The notes under the pieces are model-generated. The model was not told the DNA's origin. It ran no database searches and was given only the letters and a program-made list of their open reading frames with translations. This document shows positions 1 to 20,107 of a stretch of DNA of 50,207 nucleotides, piece by piece. Source of the DNA: a virus (lineage: Duplodnaviria; Caudoviricetes); IMG/VR virus record IMGVR_UViG_3300005253_000377, positions 1 to 50,207 of that record; one strand, 5' to 3'. Positions within the stretch are counted from its first letter, which is position 1; each line of letters opens with the position of its first letter. The translations under genes and the position numbers were made by a program.

Positions 1-1127
1 ATGTTGCAGGGCCTCATCTTCAGTTTACCACAACCTCAGACAATTATCCTTTGATGCAGATACTTAATTGGAGACATGATGACATATCTATCCGTTTTGA
101 TTCATATTGGGATGGGGCAAACAAAAGTTCAGATGCAGGGTCAAATTATGCTATTTTCAAGGTTTCTGATTCATTCAAAATAATGTACGATTCAGGAGTC
201 GCTAAAGGTGGGGCAGTCACTTGGAACGAGGGCATAGTCCTGAATACGAGTGGATTAGTAACGTTTGGTGGGGCAATAAACATCACTACGATAGCAGCCG
301 AAGGTGCTGATGTAGATAAGTTCTTGGTGGATTCTTCTGGTGTAGTTAAATATCGTACAGGAACCCAAGTATTGTCTGATATAGACGGTTCTGCGTCTGG
401 TCACAATCATAGTGGTATCTATGAACCAGCCGATGCAGGGTTGACGAGCCTTGCAGGGCTTACTTATGCAGCAGCAGCTTTTGTCAAGATGACTGGAGCA
501 AATACTTTTGCACTACGGACATTGCAGCAGACATCTGATGACCTCGAAGCGACTATCGACCACGACAATTTACTAAATTTTGCAGGGAATGAGCATTATT
601 TGCAGAGTGCAATCACAGCCGTTGGCACAATAGCAAGTGGTACGTGGCAAGGCACTACTATTGCTATTAATCAAGGTGGTACGGGCCAGACAACTGCACA
701 GGCAGCTATTGATGCCCTTAGTGCAGTATCGGGTGGGACTAATGAACACGTCCTTACAAAAGATACAGCAACGGGTAATGCCAAGTGGAAAGCTGCTGCT
801 GGTGGTGGTGGTAATTCTCAAACTTGTGATATTAATGGAACGCCAACAACAGTTTATACGAAATATTTTACTGGCACTTTAGATGCGGATTCAGAAACTC
901 TCATTGCTCACGGGATTGCTACTGGGATGACAAAAATTATAAGTGTTAATGGCTCGGCATATAATAATTCAGGGGGATATTACGAAGCTGCGGCATCTTG
1001 GCTCGCGGTATTCGCTGGTTCGGGGTCGTTTCTTATAGCATTTGACGATACAAACGTAAGAGTTTTCGGCGTAGGGGCCTCTGTACAGGGATACGGATAC
1101 AAGATTGCGATTGATTACATAGATTAG
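1..1127 (+). CDS. Tail fibre protein, C-terminal part (continues from 49677..50207 across the window ends)
   Basis: Frame is open from nt 3 (VAGPHLQFTTTSDNYPL). Gly/Thr/Ala-rich fibre motifs (GTWQGTTIAINQGGTGQTTA, LTKDTATGNAKW). First 44 nt are homologous to the last 44 nt of the window. Confidence 0.75.
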   Translation, partial: VAGPHLQFTTTSDNYPLMQILNWRHDDISIRFDSYWDGANKSSDAGSNYAIFKVSDSFKIMYDSGVAKGGAVTWNEGIVLNTSGLVTFGGAINITTIAAEGADVDKFLVDSSGVVKYRTGTQVLSDIDGSASGHNHSGIYEPADAGLTSLAGLTYAAAAFVKMTGANTFALRTLQQTSDDLEATIDHDNLLNFAGNEHYLQSAITAVGTIASGTWQGTTIAINQGGTGQTTAQAAIDALSAVSGGTNEHVLTKDTATGNAKWKAAAGGGGNSQTCDINGTPTTVYTKYFTGTLDADSETLIAHGIATGMTKIISVNGSAYNNSGGYYEAAASWLAVFAGSGSFLIAFDDTNVRVFGVGASVQGYGYKIAIDYID

Positions 1128-1145
1128 TTTCAATAGGAGAACAAT

Positions 1146-2027
1146 ATGCCAAAGATATATGAATTACCAGCAAGTTCTACTCCAGAGAATAGATCTTTAG
1201 TAATCGAACATGCACCACGTTTCAGGCAACCACAGCAGCAACAATCGCAAGGATCTGCTGATCCACGACAGATGATGGCTGGTCAGATGGACCAGGAACT
1301 TAATAGTGTGACGCAATGGTTCGATTCACAGGTGTCTGTTCTTGATCAAGGACAACTTGAACCTGATAAATATAAATCAGAATATATGAAATTACAACGG
1401 CAAGCTGCAAGTCAGCGTGTTGCAATTCAAGCTAAACATCAAGCTGCTGCTCAACAGATTAAGAATATGCAAGCATTAGTAGAAGATGGTATGCTCGCTC
1501 CAGAACAGATGCAAGCAACAATGCTGGTGATGGCTGGTGTTGATAGGGCACACGTCAAGGCAATGTTTGCACAACAAAAGCAAGCAAGCCCAAGAGTGCA
1601 GTTAAACAATGCTACGGCACTTATGAAAAAAGAAATAGCGTTCAGAAGTAATTTTGAAGATCATCGAAAAGACATTTTTGGAAAGGGTCTTTTCTATATA
1701 GATCCCGCAACAGGAAGAAAACGAAAAGCATCAGAAGCAGAACGAGATGAGTATAACAATTCAGCATCCCGATTAGGACAATTAGCTGAACGTCGAGCAG
1801 AATTATTCAACATCCTCACGCCATTAGAAAAAATGGCTGAGTCTGGAGCACAGGCCGTAGATAGATATGGTATGGGACGCGAGCCATTATCAACTGCTGG
1901 CTTTGGTGGTTTTGGATCTATGGGTGTAGCTCCACCGAGAAGAAAGCAACCAACACGTGAAGAGTTGATAAAACAAAGAACCAAAAAGGCATACGAGCAG
2001 GGTAGGAAACTGGGGTATTGGAATTAA
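1146..2027 (+). CDS. Putative internal virion/ejection protein
   Basis: 293 aa, Gln/Ala-rich and helical-looking, AGGAG RBS, lies between the fibre gene and a very large ORF as in podovirus ejection modules. Confidence 0.45.
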   Translation: MPKIYELPASSTPENRSLVIEHAPRFRQPQQQQSQGSADPRQMMAGQMDQELNSVTQWFDSQVSVLDQGQLEPDKYKSEYMKLQRQAASQRVAIQAKHQAAAQQIKNMQALVEDGMLAPEQMQATMLVMAGVDRAHVKAMFAQQKQASPRVQLNNATALMKKEIAFRSNFEDHRKDIFGKGLFYIDPATGRKRKASEAERDEYNNSASRLGQLAERRAELFNILTPLEKMAESGAQAVDRYGMGREPLSTAGFGGFGSMGVAPPRRKQPTREELIKQRTKKAYEQGRKLGYWN

Positions 2028-5000
2028 TGGGTTTTGAAACCTGGAAAAAAGACATTGAAAAAGAAGAACTAAGCGGGTTTGAGGCTTGGAAGGCTGACTT
2101 ACCTGAACCGAAGAAAGTTTATGAAGCCCCTACTGAATGGTTACGTACACAAGAAGTAGCAACCATACCTAAGAGCCTTACTACAATAGGGAAGGCTGGT
2201 CAGGCTATTACAGAAGCTGTTGCTGCTCCTGTCAGGACTATTGAATCTATGGTTGCCGGTGGCGTTGGTGGCATGATACGCATGAGTGCTGAAGCAGTAA
2301 CATTAGAGGCCGGGATAGACAGGGCAAACAAATTAATACCGGGTTATGGCACTCTCGTGGAAGGGCTTATGCGTAAGTATGGGTCTAAAAAAGCGTATTC
2401 ATTTTATGATAGGAAACTACAAAAACTTGCAGATGCTGGTAAAAAGATTTCTGATTATTGGGACGAGCAAGCAAACAAAGGTTGGGAAGCTCCTAACCCA
2501 GACATAGTTGAGGCCAAATGGAAAGATAGACCTATTAGTAAAACTGTGAGTGTTGTATCTTCCGGTTTAACATCTATAGGCACAGTTGTTGGGGCCACTT
2601 ATCTTACTGGATCTCCACATGTAGGGCTTGCGTTGTTAGCCAGTTCTGAAACAGGCGGCATGTATACGCGACTCAGGGATAGGGATGTTCCAGTTAATCA
2701 GGCTTCTAAACTCGCTCTGATGGCTGGAGCGTGGACCTATGCTACAGAGAAAGTACCCTTCGATAGACTGATGAAACCCGCTGCTCGTAGTATTGTGGGT
2801 GCTCTTAAACAGGCTGGATGGGAAGGAACACAAGAAGTAGCTGAAACTATAGGCCATAATCTTTTAGAATATTGGGGGTATAACTATAGAAAACCTGAAG
2901 ACATACCAACCGCTGTTAAGGCTATGTACGATCACGCGATGGACGGATGGTTTGATGCTTTGGTTGGTGGTGTTGGTGCTGGTGGAATAGCACATGTAGC
3001 TATGCCGCGTGGTGTCTCCAGACTCGGGACACAGATAACAGCATTAGATGATATAACAAAACAAATAGAACAATCTGATGCTCCACCACAACAGCAAGAG
3101 CAAGCATTACGATATATAGGTGATATAGAGACTAAGATTGAAGAGACGGTAGTGAATATGTTTCCTGATGAGATAAATAGTCAGGAATCGCTTGATAGAG
3201 TTGGTGATCGGATCGCTGCCGAACTTGGAATTGAAGGAATCTCATGGAATTGGGGGACAACAAAGAAAAGTCATATAGCATTTTACAGTCCACAAACAAA
3301 AGCAATTACAATTAATCCAGAGCATCCAATATTTACAAAAGATGTAGGTCAATTTTATACTATGCGTGGAGCGTTTGTTCCTATTAAAAATAAAACTCCT
3401 GGTAAATTAAACCAAGACTATCTTAAACGTGCAATTATACATGAACTTGGGCATAAAGCAGTACCTTCTTATATATCTAAAAACTATCAACAAATTGCTC
3501 ATTATGCCGAGTTCTTCGATTGGGTGAACGGCAATATTAGCAAGATGTTCGAGCAGACTCAACAGAATATGATCCCGCTTCATCGTGATGAGGCTATTGG
3601 CCCTATTACGACACCACCTACTGTAGAAGATATTACTGGTAAGACGACGGATGAAATAGAACACGCTGCTGAAGAAAAGACTGTTGACGTAATGAAACAG
3701 AATGTAGAAAAATATGGACCAAAAAAACTTACATTGATGTTCAATGAGTGGCTAAAATCACCCAAAGGTATCACAGAAAAAACTGAATTAGGCTTGCCAG
3801 AGGGTAATAAGTTTGAAGAAGTTGCTTTGTGGGAAGCGTTTAATAGATCTTTAATTCAACTCCCTGCACCTAAACCAGAGAAGCTAAAAAAGATAAAAAG
3901 AACTAAAAGAAATCTTACGGCGATGGCTCATAAGATAAAACGTGAAGCCGGACTTAGTGACAACGAATATAGTGACTATGCAGAAGCAGTAACTGGCAAG
4001 CGATCCATGAAAAACATGACTAAACAGGAACGAAATGAGTTCGTTGCGTTTCTCGAAGAGGGTTTCGGTTTCGTGCAGGAATTATCAAAAGAAGACTTCG
4101 ATATACCTATTACTGTAGCTGGTAAAGCAACAACTATGCGTCAAGTTTATAATACGGCATTAGTAGCTGTTGAAAAACTGAAAGATAAAAGTAAAATTCC
4201 AGATCTTATAAAAATTGGTGCTGATAGACCCGGCTATCTCCGGGGCTTAAAAAACTTTTTCTTCGGCATTGATAATACGCCTGTTTTTCATCTTGCAAAA
4301 ATACTTGATGGTGGTGTTGAAGGTGGTATATTTTCAGAAGTGCTCGACAAAGGAATTGAATATGGTAGAAAAACTACGGCTGCTCATACAAGATCTGTGA
4401 TGCACGCTGTTATGACGAGATTAGAAGAGTTCGGTATAACTTCTGCTGATTTGGCTAAAATGGGAAAGTCTTTAAATCCAAGATTACAAACTCATCAGAT
4501 GATAAGTGAAGGTGCAGCCACAGAAACGTTTAATGTATCATTAAACGATAAAACCTATGAAATGACTATGGCTAATTTGATTGACGTTTATCTAATGAGT
4601 GAACAAAAAGACGGAATGAGACATCTACTTTCTGGGGGCATGGTGATAAATGGAATCGAGACAGGTAAACTATCAGAAGATCAGATCCTTGAACTAAGAA
4701 CAAGAGTAGATGATAGTGCAAAAGCTATTCAAGTAGTTGCTATAATATCAGAGGTCCAAGAATTAATCTGGAAACCGTCATTAAACCAAACCTCGAATCG
4801 GCTTGAAGGTAAAGATATAGCTACTGTAGAAAATTGGTGGGGTCTTGAAGTTTATATGCCGAAGATCTTAGCAGGTAAAGTTAGAACAGGAAAACTTGGT
4901 CAGTTTAGTACCAATTTTATTGAGAATAAAAGTATCCTTAAAGATAGAACCAGAAGCAGAGCACCGTTGATTGTGCGTGATGTTTTCAGACGGTTTAACG

Positions 5001-6355
5001 CCTTTGAAAGTGCAGTAGCTGAATATGTAGGTATGGCCGAAGCTGCTCGGACATCAAGGACCCTGATTAATGATAATACTATATCTAAGGTGCTTGACCG
5101 TAAGGGATACAGTGAAGTACGCAAACGTATCTTTGATATTCATAAGCGTGCTCAAAGTGTACCAGCACCAGAGGGTAATTTTACTGCCTGGTTTGCACAG
5201 CGTTTACCAGGTTTATATCGAGCGGCCCTATATTTTAATCCAAGAATTATAGCCAGTCAATATACGTCATGTTTTAATTATGGTGCTTATGTTTCGACTG
5301 AATTTATGACTGGGATTAAAGACGGCCTAAGTGTTGAAAACTCTTTAGAAACATTAGAACTTTCAGACATCGCTTGGGACCGTTTCCACATGGGGCACAG
5401 TAGTCTTGAATTAGGAGAAATGTCTCAGTCTGACGCAGCCTTACGGATGTGGACCGGGGGCACAACTTCTGATATAAACAGAGCAGGATGGATGTTAAAA
5501 ATATCTGACCTGGGTGCTCTAACAGCCGGAATGGAAATTGCTAAACAGGAATACCTTGCAGCACAAAAAGATAAATTAGCTGGGGCTTCCGCTGAATGGT
5601 GGCTCGGCAAAGATGTATCTTTTGAAGAGGGCTGGACACAAGACGGAGAAGGAAATAAAAAAGTAAAATCAGAAGGATGGAGAAAAGTGATTTCAGACCG
5701 GGCTGAATATCTGTGGCAGAGAACACAACCATCTTGGGACAAGTGGAACAGGTCAAATCTTACATCTCAGAAGGGTGCAAGACGTTTGTTCTTAATCTTT
5801 CGTTCCTTCCATGAAAAATCACTCACAATACTTAATGATGCTATATTAAGATATGAAAATAGTTCAAAAACATTTGATGATAGAACGCGATTCATTCAAC
5901 AGACTGGTGCTGTTGCAACAAGTTATACCGTTAATATATTTTTACGTCTTGCTATATTAGCACTTATGACCAGAAAACTGGAAACACCCGCTAAATATCT
6001 TGAAGAGTTTATAACATCCTGGGTAAATATGTTTCCCGTGTTTGGTAAGGTTCTTAAATCAGCAGTTAATAGATTTATTGCTAACTTAGCAGACGAGAAA
6101 CCAACATATACTGGCGAACCTATAAAATCATATCCTGTTGATGTAGTCAATATGGTATTAAAAGTTCCAGCAGATATGACAGATGGAATAGCCCATCTTA
6201 TTGATGGTGAGAGCAAAGAAGCTAAAGAATCTTTTGCACGGGGTATTGAGAAGTTAGGTCAGGGTCTTGGGGCATTAACTGGTGTTCCTGTCTACACAAT
6301 AAAGCGAATGCTTCCAGAGGGTCAAGAAGATGAAACGCAGGAGTATAGATTCTAA
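2027..6355 (+). CDS. Large internal virion/ejection (polyvalent-type) protein with an HExxH motif and a GemA-like segment
   Basis: About 1440 aa, TAATG-coupled to the upstream gene, last large gene of the structural arm. Contains AIIHELGH and AHKIKREAGLSDNEYSDYAEAVTGKRSMKNMT. Confidence 0.6.
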   Translation: MGFETWKKDIEKEELSGFEAWKADLPEPKKVYEAPTEWLRTQEVATIPKSLTTIGKAGQAITEAVAAPVRTIESMVAGGVGGMIRMSAEAVTLEAGIDRANKLIPGYGTLVEGLMRKYGSKKAYSFYDRKLQKLADAGKKISDYWDEQANKGWEAPNPDIVEAKWKDRPISKTVSVVSSGLTSIGTVVGATYLTGSPHVGLALLASSETGGMYTRLRDRDVPVNQASKLALMAGAWTYATEKVPFDRLMKPAARSIVGALKQAGWEGTQEVAETIGHNLLEYWGYNYRKPEDIPTAVKAMYDHAMDGWFDALVGGVGAGGIAHVAMPRGVSRLGTQITALDDITKQIEQSDAPPQQQEQALRYIGDIETKIEETVVNMFPDEINSQESLDRVGDRIAAELGIEGISWNWGTTKKSHIAFYSPQTKAITINPEHPIFTKDVGQFYTMRGAFVPIKNKTPGKLNQDYLKRAIIHELGHKAVPSYISKNYQQIAHYAEFFDWVNGNISKMFEQTQQNMIPLHRDEAIGPITTPPTVEDITGKTTDEIEHAAEEKTVDVMKQNVEKYGPKKLTLMFNEWLKSPKGITEKTELGLPEGNKFEEVALWEAFNRSLIQLPAPKPEKLKKIKRTKRNLTAMAHKIKREAGLSDNEYSDYAEAVTGKRSMKNMTKQERNEFVAFLEEGFGFVQELSKEDFDIPITVAGKATTMRQVYNTALVAVEKLKDKSKIPDLIKIGADRPGYLRGLKNFFFGIDNTPVFHLAKILDGGVEGGIFSEVLDKGIEYGRKTTAAHTRSVMHAVMTRLEEFGITSADLAKMGKSLNPRLQTHQMISEGAATETFNVSLNDKTYEMTMANLIDVYLMSEQKDGMRHLLSGGMVINGIETGKLSEDQILELRTRVDDSAKAIQVVAIISEVQELIWKPSLNQTSNRLEGKDIATVENWWGLEVYMPKILAGKVRTGKLGQFSTNFIENKSILKDRTRSRAPLIVRDVFRRFNAFESAVAEYVGMAEAARTSRTLINDNTISKVLDRKGYSEVRKRIFDIHKRAQSVPAPEGNFTAWFAQRLPGLYRAALYFNPRIIASQYTSCFNYGAYVSTEFMTGIKDGLSVENSLETLELSDIAWDRFHMGHSSLELGEMSQSDAALRMWTGGTTSDINRAGWMLKISDLGALTAGMEIAKQEYLAAQKDKLAGASAEWWLGKDVSFEEGWTQDGEGNKKVKSEGWRKVISDRAEYLWQRTQPSWDKWNRSNLTSQKGARRLFLIFRSFHEKSLTILNDAILRYENSSKTFDDRTRFIQQTGAVATSYTVNIFLRLAILALMTRKLETPAKYLEEFITSWVNMFPVFGKVLKSAVNRFIANLADEKPTYTGEPIKSYPVDVVNMVLKVPADMTDGIAHLIDGESKEAKESFARGIEKLGQGLGALTGVPVYTIKRMLPEGQEDETQEYRF

Positions 6356-16886: not shown

Positions 16887-16915
16887 ACTATACCACAATC
16901 CAACTTCTCAGTCAA
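16887..16915 (-). promoter_or_regulatory. Sigma70-type promoter (TTGACT-17-TATAGT, extended -10 TG)
   Basis: GCTTGACTGAGAAGTTGGATTGTGGTATAGT, core identical to the promoter at 30067. Confidence 0.8.
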
Positions 16916-16916
16916 G

Positions 16917-17825
16917 CTATTTCTTATAATAAGGTGTCAACTCACCCTCACCAGCTATCGGTAAACTCTTTGCCCAGCTTGGCTTAACACAAAATATATC
17001 AATCGCTTTTTCTAAAGATTTCTCTGCATTTTTTTCCTGCAATAGCACCACAACCTCATCATGACTGCGAAGAATCACAGACACATCAGCAGCGTCCAAT
17101 CGCAGCACACCCTCAACGAATATGTCACGAGCAATCGCTTGGACCACGTTCTCAGTAATCGAGCCACCCCAGAGATAATACTTCTTGTACTTGAGCTTAC
17201 CACCACGTCTATCTTTGACGATCCGGGCCTGGGGGTACTTCAGACAACGAGTGGATGGTAGCTGGATATTAACCATACCGTTGTCGTTCCAAAAGCGGAA
17301 TATAAAATGATCAACCATAAGCTTTTTAGCAAGCTCTGAACAAGGTTCTTTCTTTTTTGAAAGCCACTGATGATTTAAAGTATATGTTGTTATTTGATTA
17401 GGATACTTCACCACCCACCTGAAAGCTTTCTCAATGTTGGTCCAGAACTTAGAAATTTTAGGATATTTTTTATGATATAGTTTGCCTAATTTTTGAATAA
17501 AAACAAAATTATACTCGCCAGAATCAAAATGCGGTTTAAGATCAGCATTTGATAAACAGCGATCAAAGAACTTCTGATCTCCCATTCCATAACCGCGTCC
17601 GAGGATAGCATCTTTACCAAATCCCCTTCGGATAGTAAGAATTTTCCCGATCTCTTTTGGATCAGTTTTGCGTGCTTTACGTACAGGTACGCCGAATAAA
17701 GTAGTAGCAAACTCACTATATATATCTTCTCCATCTGCAAATCCTTTCAATAGGTCGTCTTGCCCGGCAATCCAACTGAGGATGCGAGCTTCTATCTGAG
17801 CTAAGTCTATAATACCGAGGATCAT
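16917..17825 (-). CDS. polA: Family A DNA polymerase, C-terminal (polymerase) fragment
   Basis: Motif A IIDLAQIEARIL, motif B RGFGKDAILGRGYGMG, ENVVQAIARD, motif C SHDEVV. Start set at MILGIID by the ATGA overlap. Confidence 0.9.
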   Translation of the reverse strand: MILGIIDLAQIEARILSWIAGQDDLLKGFADGEDIYSEFATTLFGVPVRKARKTDPKEIGKILTIRRGFGKDAILGRGYGMGDQKFFDRCLSNADLKPHFDSGEYNFVFIQKLGKLYHKKYPKISKFWTNIEKAFRWVVKYPNQITTYTLNHQWLSKKKEPCSELAKKLMVDHFIFRFWNDNGMVNIQLPSTRCLKYPQARIVKDRRGGKLKYKKYYLWGGSITENVVQAIARDIFVEGVLRLDAADVSVILRSHDEVVVLLQEKNAEKSLEKAIDIFCVKPSWAKSLPIAGEGELTPYYKK

Positions 17826-17998
17826 ATTTTGTTTTTCCATAAATGATTAAAAAATCTTTTTATACGAACTAACCATTTTTTGTCGTAACATTCTACACAT
17901 AAGTATCCAGCAATATGAGCGAGCATAGCAAGACTCCATCGTTCATAATAACCACCCAAGCCTTTGTGGAGTTCTTTTTCACACCACCAACACTTCAT
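17822..17998 (-). CDS. 58-aa Cys-rich (CxxC...CxxC) protein inserted within the split polymerase (not in the ORF track)
   Basis: MKCWWCEKELHKGLGGYYERWSLAMLAHIAGYLCVECYDKKWLVRIKRFFNHLWKNKI, ATGA overlaps at both ends. Confidence 0.7.
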   Translation of the reverse strand: MKCWWCEKELHKGLGGYYERWSLAMLAHIAGYLCVECYDKKWLVRIKRFFNHLWKNKI

Positions 17999-18039
17999 TT
18001 CGGTGCTCTCAATTTAAAGTCTATAATTCCGAGGATCAT
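17995..18039 (-). repeat. 14-codon mini-ORF duplicating both polymerase junction sequences (MILGIID + LRAPK)
   Basis: ATGATCCTCGGAATTATAGACTT is 22/23 identical to the start of the pol C-fragment. LRAPK echoes LKAPK at the end of the pol N-fragment. Confidence 0.85.
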
Positions 18040-18042
18040 TAT

Positions 18043-18480
18043 TTACCTATTCCTGCAATTTTCGTCATGGGTTACAAACCTAATGTTTCCAGGTTCATAG
18101 TTACCATCATTATTAATTCTATCAATTTGCAATCCATGTGGATTAACTTGTAATTCATTAATAATGTAATCTATAAATTCGTTAGCATTTTTGAACAAAC
18201 ATTTAATGCCACGGCCACCATAGTTTTTATATTGTTTATAATTTGGATTAGTACAGCGTTTCTTCATTTCGTGAAAGCGTTGGCGAAGATAACCCATAAA
18301 AGTTTTTCTATATTTTTTCATATATTTAGCATGTTCAATTTTATGAGTCTGTTTATACTTTCGAGATTTTTCTTTAAGACAAACTTTACAACACGAGCTA
18401 AGCTTGCTTTTCAAATGATTATCTTTATAAAATTCAGATAAAGATTTAGTTTTCTTACATTTAGTGCAAGTTCTTTTCAT
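18043..18480 (-). CDS. HNH-family homing endonuclease-like protein
   Basis: N-terminal CTKC...CKVC, MKKRC.NPN...YGGRGI, QIDRINNDGNYEPGNIRFVT..NCRN. Confidence 0.85.
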   Translation of the reverse strand: MKRTCTKCKKTKSLSEFYKDNHLKSKLSSCCKVCLKEKSRKYKQTHKIEHAKYMKKYRKTFMGYLRQRFHEMKKRCTNPNYKQYKNYGGRGIKCLFKNANEFIDYIINELQVNPHGLQIDRINNDGNYEPGNIRFVTHDENCRNR

Positions 18481-19652
18481 CCTTTTGGAGCCTTTAGTAA
18501 ATTTCTTATTTTTTGTAATACCTCTGGAGTTCCAGCACCAGCACGGCCACGCCCAGGTAAGTTCTGCATGTTCACATTCTGTGTACCACTGTCACGCCCA
18601 GTATGCCCACCGTAGTAAAGTAGTGGACAGGCGAGCTTACCCCCCCGAAGTTCAGCCTGTCGTCGCATAGATTCCACTCGTTTGATCCAAGTAGGCCACG
18701 ACTTTGCAGCCTTGCGAGCCAGAGCAAGCTCGCGTACTATTGCTTCTGGATGTATGAGAAGCCGTTGAAAGAACAGATCGTCTTGAGCAAGTGCTGGAAT
18801 GTTGCCAATCTTACCAGCTTTCATCCCGACAGTTTCACCTTTAGGAAGCACGCTGGCTAATGCTTTAACAAATTGTGCTGATCTGATCGTTTCAATTATT
18901 GCTTTATGTTTTTTTAATTTATATTTCCACACCCATTCGGCTTTATTAAGAGCACTATATAATTCAATTTCCATCTCTGTTATAATCTCTTTAGCAAGCT
19001 CGAAGTCAAACTCGAACTGCGGGATCAGGAACATCTCCAGGGTGTGTTGCTGGAGTGGCAACTCCACCGCTGGATTCGTAAGAAGTGGGAGTAGTAATCT
19101 AAATAACAAAGTAGTGGCAATGGTGTCACCACGACAGTATTCTGCCGCTTTCTGTTGCTGCGTAGGCGACATGTCTCGCCAGTGTAAACCTTTTATCCAT
19201 GTATTGTCACCTTTTTGTACTCCTATATCATAACATTCACACAGTTTCTCAAGTTTATTTGGTCGCCTGGAGTCTTCGTGTCTCGCCAAATTCAGGGTAT
19301 CCACAGTATACTTCGGCGTGATGCCGAACTTCTCATGTAGAATCATCGCATCGAACATGAGGTTCTGGCCGACGAGTGTGCAGCCTTTGAGGTTCTTACC
19401 ATAATTATTCTGTAAGAAAGATATTGCATCTTCGATACGTTCTGGTGTAAAAAAACAACAGTTTTCAGGATCGCCAAACGGTTGCGTTGCTACAAACGCA
19501 CCCAGCCCACTGAACTCGAACCGATCATCGCAGATGTACTCGATGTAGCTGAGGTTGCTCAGCGAGTAATCCTTATCGAAGTAACTCTCGAAGTCGAGCG
19601 TGACGGCTGTTGTTGGGTAATGATATTTAGCTAAGATCTGTTGCCAGTTCAT
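18477..19652 (-). CDS. polA: Family A DNA polymerase, N-terminal fragment (3'-5' exonuclease + thumb)
   Basis: ExoI TLDFESYF, QNLMFD, YCRGD, HTGRDSG..NMQNLP, ends IRNLLKAPKG immediately before where motif A should follow. Confidence 0.9.
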   Translation of the reverse strand: MNWQQILAKYHYPTTAVTLDFESYFDKDYSLSNLSYIEYICDDRFEFSGLGAFVATQPFGDPENCCFFTPERIEDAISFLQNNYGKNLKGCTLVGQNLMFDAMILHEKFGITPKYTVDTLNLARHEDSRRPNKLEKLCECYDIGVQKGDNTWIKGLHWRDMSPTQQQKAAEYCRGDTIATTLLFRLLLPLLTNPAVELPLQQHTLEMFLIPQFEFDFELAKEIITEMEIELYSALNKAEWVWKYKLKKHKAIIETIRSAQFVKALASVLPKGETVGMKAGKIGNIPALAQDDLFFQRLLIHPEAIVRELALARKAAKSWPTWIKRVESMRRQAELRGGKLACPLLYYGGHTGRDSGTQNVNMQNLPGRGRAGAGTPEVLQKIRNLLKAPKG

Positions 19653-20107
19653 AAACTATATCCAGCTAATACAATTTGATAAGTTATGTTTACAGGGGGC
19701 CATTCTAAATTAATGCCTATACTTTTCATTGTAGATGTTACATTTACGCCATCACCTTCAGGACAGTTTATAATTATAAATTTTTTATGTTCTAATAAAA
19801 ATTTATGAACATATTCTTTTAATTGTTTCCTGGCCGTCGGTTGCCAATAAAGACAACATTCAATCTGACGTTTTGACCAATTAGAATGTTTTTCTTTCAT
19901 TTTTTTGCAATGAGCAGCAAAATTAAAAACACTCCAAATAACAAATACAGGTTTGCTTAAATTAATTTTTTCATCAATGGTTCTGCTGATTGGTGGACAT
20001 CCAACTTTATGATTATAATTGGGACAGCCTTTAGGATGATTAGTATATGCTCTAAAACAGAGCTGTCGTACACTAAAATCTAAAATTGGATTAATTTGTT
20101 TATACAT
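19649..20107 (-). CDS. DUF2284-like predicted metal-binding protein
   Basis: C...GCPNYNHKVGCPP and PEGDGVNVTST motifs. Confidence 0.55.
   Translation of the reverse strand: MYKQINPILDFSVRQLCFRAYTNHPKGCPNYNHKVGCPPISRTIDEKINLSKPVFVIWSVFNFAAHCKKMKEKHSNWSKRQIECCLYWQPTARKQLKEYVHKFLLEHKKFIIINCPEGDGVNVTSTMKSIGINLEWPPVNITYQIVLAGYSL

What the first reader, a model, noticed from the sequence alone, without database searches (positions are those of the whole stretch)
17995..18039. Permuted junction scar: start of pol-C fused to the end of a foreign pol-N between two cassettes
Seen: the mini-ORF MILGIIDFKLRAPK begins with 23 nt that are 22/23 identical to the pol-C start, and ends TTG AGA GCA CCG AAA (LRAPK), a diverged version of the pol-N end CTA AAG GCT CCA AAA (LKAPK). 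Each inserted gene is therefore bracketed by [pol-N end]-gene-[pol-C start]. Inference: two different split-pol alleles were stacked in tandem, or gene cassettes integrate serially using the pol junction as an attachment-like site. That would be an integron-like array inside an essential gene.
Basis: partly seen in the sequence, partly recalled or inferred. Interest (0 to 1): 0.85.

Follow-up and report, generated by a model that had tools for sequence, protein, structure and literature searches.

The report
Recombination scar between two polymerase-gene inserts
A phage DNA polymerase gene that is naturally split in two carries two unrelated inserted genes, and the 45 bases between them are a leftover joint showing that two differently occupied versions of the split gene were stacked by sloppy recombination, not by an integron-like system.

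Summary
On the minus strand, 18039-18017 repeats the real polC start (17825-17803) at 22 of 23 bases (0 expected by chance). The mini-ORF ends LRAPK-stop. That is the exact C-terminus of 5 of the 14 closest split polN proteins, whereas the resident polN ends LKAPKG.

The order is polN / HNH-like gene / [polC start + foreign polN tail] / 58-aa zinc-ribbon gene / polC. Every junction is an ATGA overlap or a 3-nt gap. Contigs from a second sample carry the identical arrangement, so it is not an assembly chimera.

Best reading (0.6): two alleles of an already split PolA, each with a different occupant, were joined by one homologous and one illegitimate crossover. This was probably one-sided repair of a double-strand break.

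The integron-like reading is not supported. The genome has no integrase. None of 17 other insertions has flanking repeats. No relative carries the scar. The small gene sits elsewhere without any pol pieces around it.

The same site does hold varied content in relatives: nothing, a methyltransferase gene, or another zinc-ribbon tail. The scan has reported split polymerases with endonuclease scars on other DNA before. This is a modest new variant of a known kind. DNA of the closest relatives could not be fetched.

The parts
18477..19652 (-). polN: the N-terminal piece of a family A DNA polymerase (391 aa, 3'-5' exonuclease plus thumb). It ends IRNLLKAPKG-stop.
   Evidence: Seen as an ORF. It matches Pfam DNA_pol_A_exo1 and phrog_17 DNA polymerase. 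It is collinear with unsplit relatives up to the residue before motif A.
18043..18480 (-). HNH-like homing-endonuclease gene (145 aa). Its ATG overlaps the polN stop (ATGA at 18480-18477). After its TAA stop come 3 nt (ATA, 18042-18040).
   Evidence: It matches phrog_374 HNH endonuclease at E=4e-26. Homologues sit at many different places in related phages. The motif reads IDRINNDGNYEPGNIRFVTHDEN, with Asp where canonical relatives have His. Pfam gives no hit. The fold search gives only weak matches to PacI and Hpy99I.
18017..18039 (-). Scar, part 1: a copy of the first 23 nt of polC (ATG ATC CTC GGA ATT ATA GAC TT, MILGIID).
   Evidence: It matches 17825-17803 at 22 of 23 positions, with 0 matches expected by chance.
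18013..18016 (-). Scar, part 2: 4 nt (T AAA) that cannot be assigned to either parent. The illegitimate joint lies here.
   Evidence: Read directly. The likeness to polC ends after GACTT, and the likeness to polN tails begins at TTG (Leu).
17995..18012 (-). Scar, part 3: the tail of a foreign polN allele, TTG AGA GCA CCG AAA TGA (LRAPK-stop). The stop overlaps the next ATG.
   Evidence: It is identical to the C-terminus of P0006, P0008, P0011, P0014 and P0017. It matches the resident tail at 9 of 15 nt and lacks the Gly codon.
17822..17998 (-). A 58-aa CxxC...CxxC (zinc-ribbon-like) gene of unknown function. It has ATGA overlaps at both ends.
   Evidence: Relatives at 68-74% identity keep all four Cys. 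DNA likeness is confined to the ORF in three different contexts. It has only a weak phrog_7346 match, and its nearest Atlas clusters are unnamed viral proteins.
16917..17825 (-). polC: the C-terminal piece of the polymerase (302 aa from MILGIIDLAQIEAR, which is motif A). Its first 23 nt (17825-17803) are the second copy of the repeat.
   Evidence: It matches Pfam DNA_pol_A. The protein collection holds the window's own product as a 302-aa protein, P0055. Relatives start at the same Met.

Best explanation
The 45-nt mini-ORF is a recombination joint. It is a fossil of the event that stacked two differently occupied alleles of a PolA gene that was already split just before motif A.

One parent carried polN(..APKG-stop)/HNH-like gene/polC. 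The other carried polN(..LRAPK-stop)/58-aa gene/polC, or the same allele still empty, with the 58-aa gene slotting into its ATGA junction later.

One crossover was homologous, within the pol coding sequence. The other was illegitimate. It joined base 23 of the polC that follows the HNH gene to a point about 18 nt before the stop of the other allele's polN.

The most likely trigger is a double-strand break near the junction, made during co-infection by the HNH-like endonuclease or otherwise, and repaired on one side without homology. The product keeps both cargo genes.

All five reading frames stay chained by ATGA overlaps or a 3-nt gap. The scar, which retains the original polC ribosome-binding region and start, probably serves as a short leader that passes ribosomes on to the 58-aa gene and then to polC.

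What is shown: the anatomy, the two junction types, that the arrangement is real, and that this site has varied occupants. What is inferred: the break, which element came first, and the translational coupling.
For: 1. Repeat and tail are not chance.

2. Two junction types sit in one locus. The resident polN ends KAPKG-stop and the scar ends RAPK-stop. Among the 14 closest polN proteins (79-88% identity, all 390-421 aa and so all split here), 5 end LRAPK, 1 ends LKAPK and 1 ends LRVPK. Five end in x-G, 1 ends APKE, and 1 is fused to a 30-aa zinc-ribbon tail.

3. The two halves of the scar differ in divergence: 1 of 23 bases against 6 of 15 bases plus a missing codon. This argues against a simple internal duplication.

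4. The locus is real. A 727-nt contig from another sample covers 17772-18498 with 0 differences, and a 274-nt contig covers 17807-18080.

5. The site has varied occupants.
- Unsplit in 17 of 18 loci. In the wider survey, 4 of 89 loci are split.
- Empty ATGA splits in L003 and L046/L047.
- A phrog_757 methyltransferase gene in L044.
- A different in-frame tail in P0013.
- A different upstream neighbour implied by the 13-residue extension of P0065.

6. Both cargo genes move independently. HNH homologues lie at many sites. The 58-aa gene lies after a UDG-PolA fusion gene in L025 and after an unrelated ORF in L026, with likeness limited to the ORF.

7. There is precedent. One-sided homing with illegitimate break repair at microhomology is described in passages of PMC2988022. 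Endonuclease-driven tandem repeats with a microhomology joint are described in passages of PMC13096335.
Against: No parent allele has been seen at the DNA level. So it is not shown that any LRAPK-stop allele carries the 58-aa gene.

None of the contigs that hold the close polN proteins has the length of the contigs that hold the two protein homologues of the 58-aa gene.

The difference in divergence rests on 38 bases and is partly explained by codon degeneracy.

The HNH-like protein has Asp where canonical family members have the catalytic His. It gets no Pfam HNH hit. Its nuclease activity is therefore uncertain.

No clear microhomology is visible at the joint. Only one such scar exists in everything examined.
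Confidence: 0.6

Rival explanations
1. Campbell-type insertion of a circular cassette. A circle carrying [polC start + foreign polN tail + 58-aa gene] was cut out of another allele. It then integrated by homologous recombination across the 23-28-nt polC start of an HNH-bearing allele. This leaves the direct repeats and allows reversible loss.
For: The 58-aa gene plus the polN tail is flanked by 25/28-nt direct repeats, which is exactly what such an integration leaves. The gene occurs in three or more unrelated contexts, bounded by start/stop overlaps.
Against: This still needs an illegitimate joint to make the circle, so it is a variant of the best explanation and not a separate system. In L025 and L026 the gene has no pol pieces beside it. 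No circle or deletion joint was seen, but only contigs could be laid, which cannot show rare forms. Twenty-three bases is very short for homologous recombination.
Confidence: 0.15
2. Internal tandem duplication of [polN tail - cassette - polC start] within one genome. One copy of the cargo was later replaced, and the duplicated polN tail drifted.
For: An end-to-start joint is what a tandem duplication makes. Endonuclease-driven segmental amplification is documented in T-even phages (PMC13096335 passages).
Against: The two cargo genes are unrelated. The duplicated polN tail differs at 6 of 15 bases and lacks a codon, while the duplicated polC start differs at 1 of 23. The scar's tail equals a junction type found in other phages.
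Confidence: 0.1
3. Integron-like platform. The pol junction is an attachment site, and cassettes are added serially by site-specific recombination.
For: Two cassettes lie in tandem, each between a polN end and a polC start. The site has varied content in relatives.
Against: No PF00589 or PF00239 recombinase is present in the complete genome. No inverted repeat lies at the scar. None of 17 other insertions has flanking repeats. The scar was found nowhere else. The cassettes lack pol pieces in other contexts.
Confidence: 0.03
4. Assembly chimera. Two strains, one with the HNH gene and one with the 58-aa gene, were merged at the 23-nt repeat.
For: The repeat sits exactly at the seam. Related strains co-occur in the same samples (records 2, 12, 20, 30).
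Against: Separate per-run assemblies of two samples give identical contigs across the seam. These are X1 record 1 (6646 nt), X2 record 13 (727 nt, 17772-18498) and X3 record 21 (17807-18080), all with 0 differences. The repeat is shorter than the 31-letter words the run index is built on and is imperfect.
Confidence: 0.03

Closest known systems
Genes in pieces made by free-standing homing endonucleases: Aeromonas phage Aeh1 nrdA-a/mobE/nrdA-b, T4 gene 39/mobA/gene 60, and the split gp43 of phage 25 (passages of the review PMC2988022)
   Same: An essential replication gene is cut in a conserved region by an HNH-type endonuclease gene. The two pieces are expressed as separate proteins. Relatives have the gene uninterrupted.
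   Different: Here the split holds two unrelated genes plus a permuted joint. The close relatives are all split, and some more distant ones are split with nothing inside. The HNH-like protein lacks the canonical catalytic His.
[quoted passage not shown] I saw this only as summarised in PMC2988022; the paper itself is not held.
   Same: One homologous and one non-homologous junction. The mobile DNA is copied together with a stretch of donor flank into a site that lacks homology on one side.
   Different: That was a laboratory system with engineered homology. Here it is a natural product inferred from sequence, and no microhomology is evident at the joint.
SegB-driven segmental amplification in phage T6/T4 (PMC13096335, passages)
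   Same: A homing endonuclease promotes tandem arrays whose novel joint fuses the end of a unit to its start.
   Different: Those units are identical copies and are unstable. Here the two units carry different genes and different junction types.
mobE-promoted trans homing of the defunct I-TevIII element (PMC2790892; I saw only the abstract in the search listing)
   Same: An endonuclease gene mobilises a neighbouring passenger. The 58-aa gene next to the HNH gene could spread in the same way.
   Different: Hitch-hiking is not shown here.
[quoted passage not shown]
   Same: A split phage DNA polymerase with a small ORF of unknown function in the gap.
   Different: No likeness to the 58-aa gene was found in cultured phages. 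No scar is described there.
Integrons
   Same: Tandem promoter-less cassettes at one site.
   Different: No integrase, no attC-like sites, and no repeated scar.

Membership tests
Free-standing homing-endonuclease insertion that splits a host gene | The host gene is contiguous in relatives, and the split lies exactly at the insertion | tested here: met
   Seventeen of 18 loci are unsplit at this codon. P0019-P0022 are unsplit at 64-67% identity. polN plus polC is collinear with ..APxG(Y/H)ILGI...
Free-standing homing-endonuclease insertion that splits a host gene | The inserted ORF belongs to a homing-endonuclease family with an intact catalytic motif | tested here: inconclusive
   It matches phrog_374 HNH endonuclease at E=4e-26. 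However, it has Asp in place of the His of canonical homologues such as those in L013 and L059. Pfam gives no HNH hit. The fold matches to PacI and Hpy99I have E>0.1.
Free-standing homing-endonuclease insertion that splits a host gene | Patchy presence at different positions among related genomes | tested here: met
   Homologues lie upstream of pol, directly after polC, inside polC about 80 residues further on, and elsewhere. One lies inside an intein region of the DNA polymerase of Salmonella phage VT223.
Free-standing homing-endonuclease insertion that splits a host gene | The endonuclease cuts the allele that lacks it | not testable with these tools
   Needs a cleavage assay.
Integron-like cassette array | A site-specific (tyrosine) recombinase encoded with the array | tested here: not met
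   PF00589 and PF00239 both give 0 matches in the complete genome, with the controls positive.
Integron-like cassette array | Each cassette ends in a structured attC-like imperfect inverted repeat | tested here: not met
   No inverted repeat lies at or beside 17995-18044 among the pairs listed. The stretch is fully coding.
Integron-like cassette array | Arrays of varying length in relatives, separated by the same site | tested here: not met
   No other scar was found. None of 17 insertions has flanking repeats. The 23-mer is absent from IMG/VR. Splits hold 0 or 1 gene in L003, L046/47 and L044. The contigs of the closest relatives were not seen.
Tandem segmental duplication (accordion) | Repeated units are copies of one another | tested here: not met
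   The HNH gene and the 58-aa gene are unrelated, and each is single-copy in the genome.
Group I intron or intein in a polymerase gene | A ribozyme fold, or an in-frame Hint domain | tested here: not met
   No Rfam intron family matches at E<=1 in 16900-19700. The gap is filled by separate ORFs with stops.

The most novel reading that the evidence does not exclude
The junction just before motif A of this PolA clade is a docking place for tiny promoter-less genes that begin and end in ATGA. These genes slot into overlapping stop-start junctions, so that translation is passed along the chain. Stacking leaves permuted scars whose direct repeats allow cassettes to be lost and regained. This would be a recombinase-free, endonuclease- and homology-driven counterpart of an integron inside an essential gene.
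Probability: 0.12. Interest if true: 0.7.

Novelty: new variant of a known kind. Interest (0 to 1): 0.35.

Why it matters
Split phage polymerase genes with endonuclease passengers are well known. How a second passenger gets in beside the first is rarely visible. This scar records the event base by base. It shows that an occupied site can be invaded again by non-homologous joining, so that cargo genes pile up inside an essential gene without breaking it. It also predicts where the break was made. If more such joints turn up, they would give a way to date and order the invasions of hot spots in phage replication genes.

Tried and rejected
Near-identical DNA was sought in cultured phages with megablast of 16900-19700. 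There was no match. The best protein likeness for polC is about 31%.

The 23-mer was sought in IMG/VR with no match. The 58-aa gene was sought in IMG/VR and in cultured phages, both without a match.

I looked up cluster members for five polN/polC pairs, hoping for gene order. No accessions were given, so nothing was learned beyond contig lengths. A scan of the species genomes gave 5 loci. In all of them polN and polC abut, and none is close.

Laying contigs showed no joint that deletes the 214 nt between the repeats. Contigs drop rare forms, so this says nothing either way. It is not used as evidence.

A ribosomal hop between the two MILGIID starts was considered and dropped. The distance is 214 nt and it contains a conserved gene.

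An intron or intein was rejected (and the ORF layout).

The structure of the HNH-like protein was predicted (mean pLDDT 86). Foldseek against the PDB gave no match at E<=0.001. NCBIfam and the PDB sequence search gave nothing meaningful.

Supplementary files of the papers were not opened. They might hold junction sequences for PMC13096335.

Full report
What is there. The window is a complete 50,207-base virus record. The region of interest is read on the minus strand, in this order:
- polN (19652-18477, 391 aa) carries the 3'-5' exonuclease domain and ends IRNLLKAPKG-stop.
- An HNH-like gene (18480-18043, 145 aa; phrog_374 at E=4e-26) starts inside the polN stop (ATGA).
- Three bases (ATA) follow.
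- The 14-codon mini-ORF of the finding (18039-17995) comes next.
- A 58-aa CxxC...CxxC gene (17998-17822) starts inside the mini-ORF's stop (ATGA).
- polC starts at the MILGIID ATG (17825), which lies inside the 58-aa gene's stop (ATGA again).
MILGIIDLAQIEAR is motif A of family A polymerases (Pfam DNA_pol_A). The motif name is from my own knowledge.

The first 23 nt of the mini-ORF match the polC start at 22 of 23 positions. This pair is the top direct repeat of the region (25/28, spacing 214). It gives the only two matches in the window at up to 3 mismatches, with none in 100 shuffles. The last five codons read LRAPK, against LKAPK(G) at the end of polN. That is 4 of 5 residues and 9 of 15 bases. 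A match this good has a chance of about 3e-5 to 1e-4 per register.

The tail belongs to a real, different allele type. The protein search with polN gave 51 proteins at E<=1e-20. Fourteen of them (P0005-P0018, 79-88% identical) are 390-421 aa long, so they end at this same junction. Their ends are:
- LRAPK in 5
- LKAPK in 1
- LRVPK in 1
- x-G (APGG, APAG, APKG, ASRG, ASKG) in 5
- APKE in 1
- a fusion to a 30-residue CxxC...CxxC tail in 1 (P0013)
Four more distant proteins (P0019-P0022, 64-67%) are unsplit and read ..AP-x-x-(Y/H)-ILGI... The resident polN is therefore of the 'KG-stop' type, collinear with the unsplit enzyme. The scar is of the 'K-stop' type, one residue shorter. Two junction types in one locus are hard to derive from an internal duplication and easy to derive from two parents. 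The polC side is uniform. Of the 18 relatives P0056-P0073, 15 begin MILGI(I/V)D, one has 13 extra residues in front, one begins MKKILGIID, and one is truncated.

The arrangement is not an assembly artefact. Logan contigs of four runs were laid on 16900-19700. Run X1, possibly the source, has a 6646-nt contig with 0 differences. Run X2, from another sample of the same study, has a 727-nt contig that covers 17772-18498 with 0 differences. Run X3, from the same sample as X2, has a 274-nt contig that covers 17807-18080. In all four runs, other contigs that are 83-89% like polC lose their likeness to the window at 17825-17830, exactly at the polC start (records 2, 12, 20, 30). Co-occurring relatives therefore have something else upstream.

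What relatives hold at this site. In IMG/VR, 17 of 18 first loci are unsplit at this codon. In the wider set of 89 loci, some of which come from the same contig, 4 are split here and 3 end too close to the contig edge to tell. The 4 split loci are:
- L003, which is empty and has an ATGA overlap.
- L046 and L047, which are empty and have an ATGA overlap.
- L044, which holds a 185-aa gene matching phrog_757, DNA methyltransferase (E=2e-67), with an ATGA at its start.
Among 153 further loci, my motif-A pattern found the junction in 118. Only L098, the same contig as L044, is split. The protein searches show many more two-piece enzymes starting just before motif A in other branches. So the site is a recurrent break point with varied or no content. 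No relative shows two cassettes or a scar.

Both cargo genes move on their own. HNH homologues lie in many positions: before pol, directly after polC (L010), and inside polC about 80 residues further on (L019, L081, L086, L091, L092). The 58-aa gene has two protein relatives (68% identical) and two metagenome loci. In L025 it follows an 874-aa polymerase gene, with ATGA overlaps on both sides. In L026 it follows an unrelated ORF. DNA likeness starts at its ATG and ends at its stop, and the flanks are unrelated. I tested the flanks of 17 other insertions for direct repeats. None exceeded its shuffles, whereas the 58-aa gene in the window scored 20 against a shuffle maximum of 12.

Mechanism. 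A joint that fuses the start of polC to the end of polN is what an unequal, non-homologous exchange between two occupied alleles leaves. One-sided homing in T4, with microhomology joints and long resection, is the laboratory precedent (PMC2988022 passages). SegB-driven tandem arrays give another precedent (PMC13096335 passages). Which element came first cannot be told. If the HNH element invaded an allele of the K-stop type, the joint marks roughly where the recipient was cut, about 18 nt before its polN stop. Two cautions apply to the endonuclease. It has Asp where canonical homologues have His. Its fold search is weak. On the other hand, its family is tied to polymerase genes elsewhere. The chain of ATGA overlaps suggests translational coupling, which is an inference.

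The integron idea fails its defining tests. The genome has no tyrosine or serine recombinase. No inverted repeat lies at the scar. No repeated scar is seen. No intron is present.

Limits. The two parent alleles are therefore inferred from protein ends, not seen as DNA.

Verdict. The scar is real and neatly informative, and it supports 'two alleles stacked'. It is a modest new variant of known endonuclease-driven gene-in-pieces biology. The scan has already reported split polymerases with endonuclease scars on other DNA.

Noticed in passing
L044 1571-2128 (IMG/VR locus): The same split site before motif A holds a 185-aa gene matching phrog_757, DNA methyltransferase (E=2e-67). Its ATG overlaps the polN stop (ATGA). 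This is a cargo gene in a polymerase split.
   Followed up: partly
Protein P0013 (421 aa, on a 50,541-nt contig): The polN of a close relative runs on in frame at ..LLRAP into a 30-residue CxxC...CxxC tail. This is yet another occupant of the same junction, here fused to polN.
   Followed up: no
L019, L081, L086, L091, L092 (about 5000-6000); L004, L014/L063, L038, L039; L051: The clade has further break points. An HNH homologue lies inside polC about 80 residues after motif A. A split lies about 150 residues upstream of the junction. L051 has a 978-nt in-frame insert that may be an intein.
   Followed up: partly
L251 (Salmonella phage VT223, PP280813.1), 2237-2980 within CDS 735-3881: A 247-aa HNH homologue (phrog_374, E=4e-46) is open in a second frame inside the intein-like middle of the annotated 1048-aa DNA polymerase ORF. 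That ORF stays open in its own frame across the same stretch.
   Followed up: partly
L025 3805-3981 and L026 277-483: The 58-aa zinc-ribbon gene sits between unrelated genes, with ATGA (or ATGG) overlaps at its ends. The 11 bases before its ATG in L025 (ACAAAATATGA) equal the last 11 bases of the gene in the window. This may be chance in A-rich sequence.
   Followed up: partly
window 18043-18480: Nine of the 12 aligned HNH-like proteins, the window's among them, read I-D-R...N...N. Two (L013, L059) read I-H-R...H...H. This is a His-less branch that nevertheless looks mobile.
   Followed up: partly
window 16917-17825 (polC), alignment A1 columns 155-177: The window's polC has a 23-residue insert (TLNHQWLSKKKEPCSELAKKLMVDH) that is absent from L002 and L003 and, judging by length, from many close relatives (277-289 aa).
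   Followed up: no
L002 1589-4363: An unsplit polymerase is fused at its N-terminus to a Mom-family domain (PF25680, E=4e-42), giving a 924-aa protein.
   Followed up: partly
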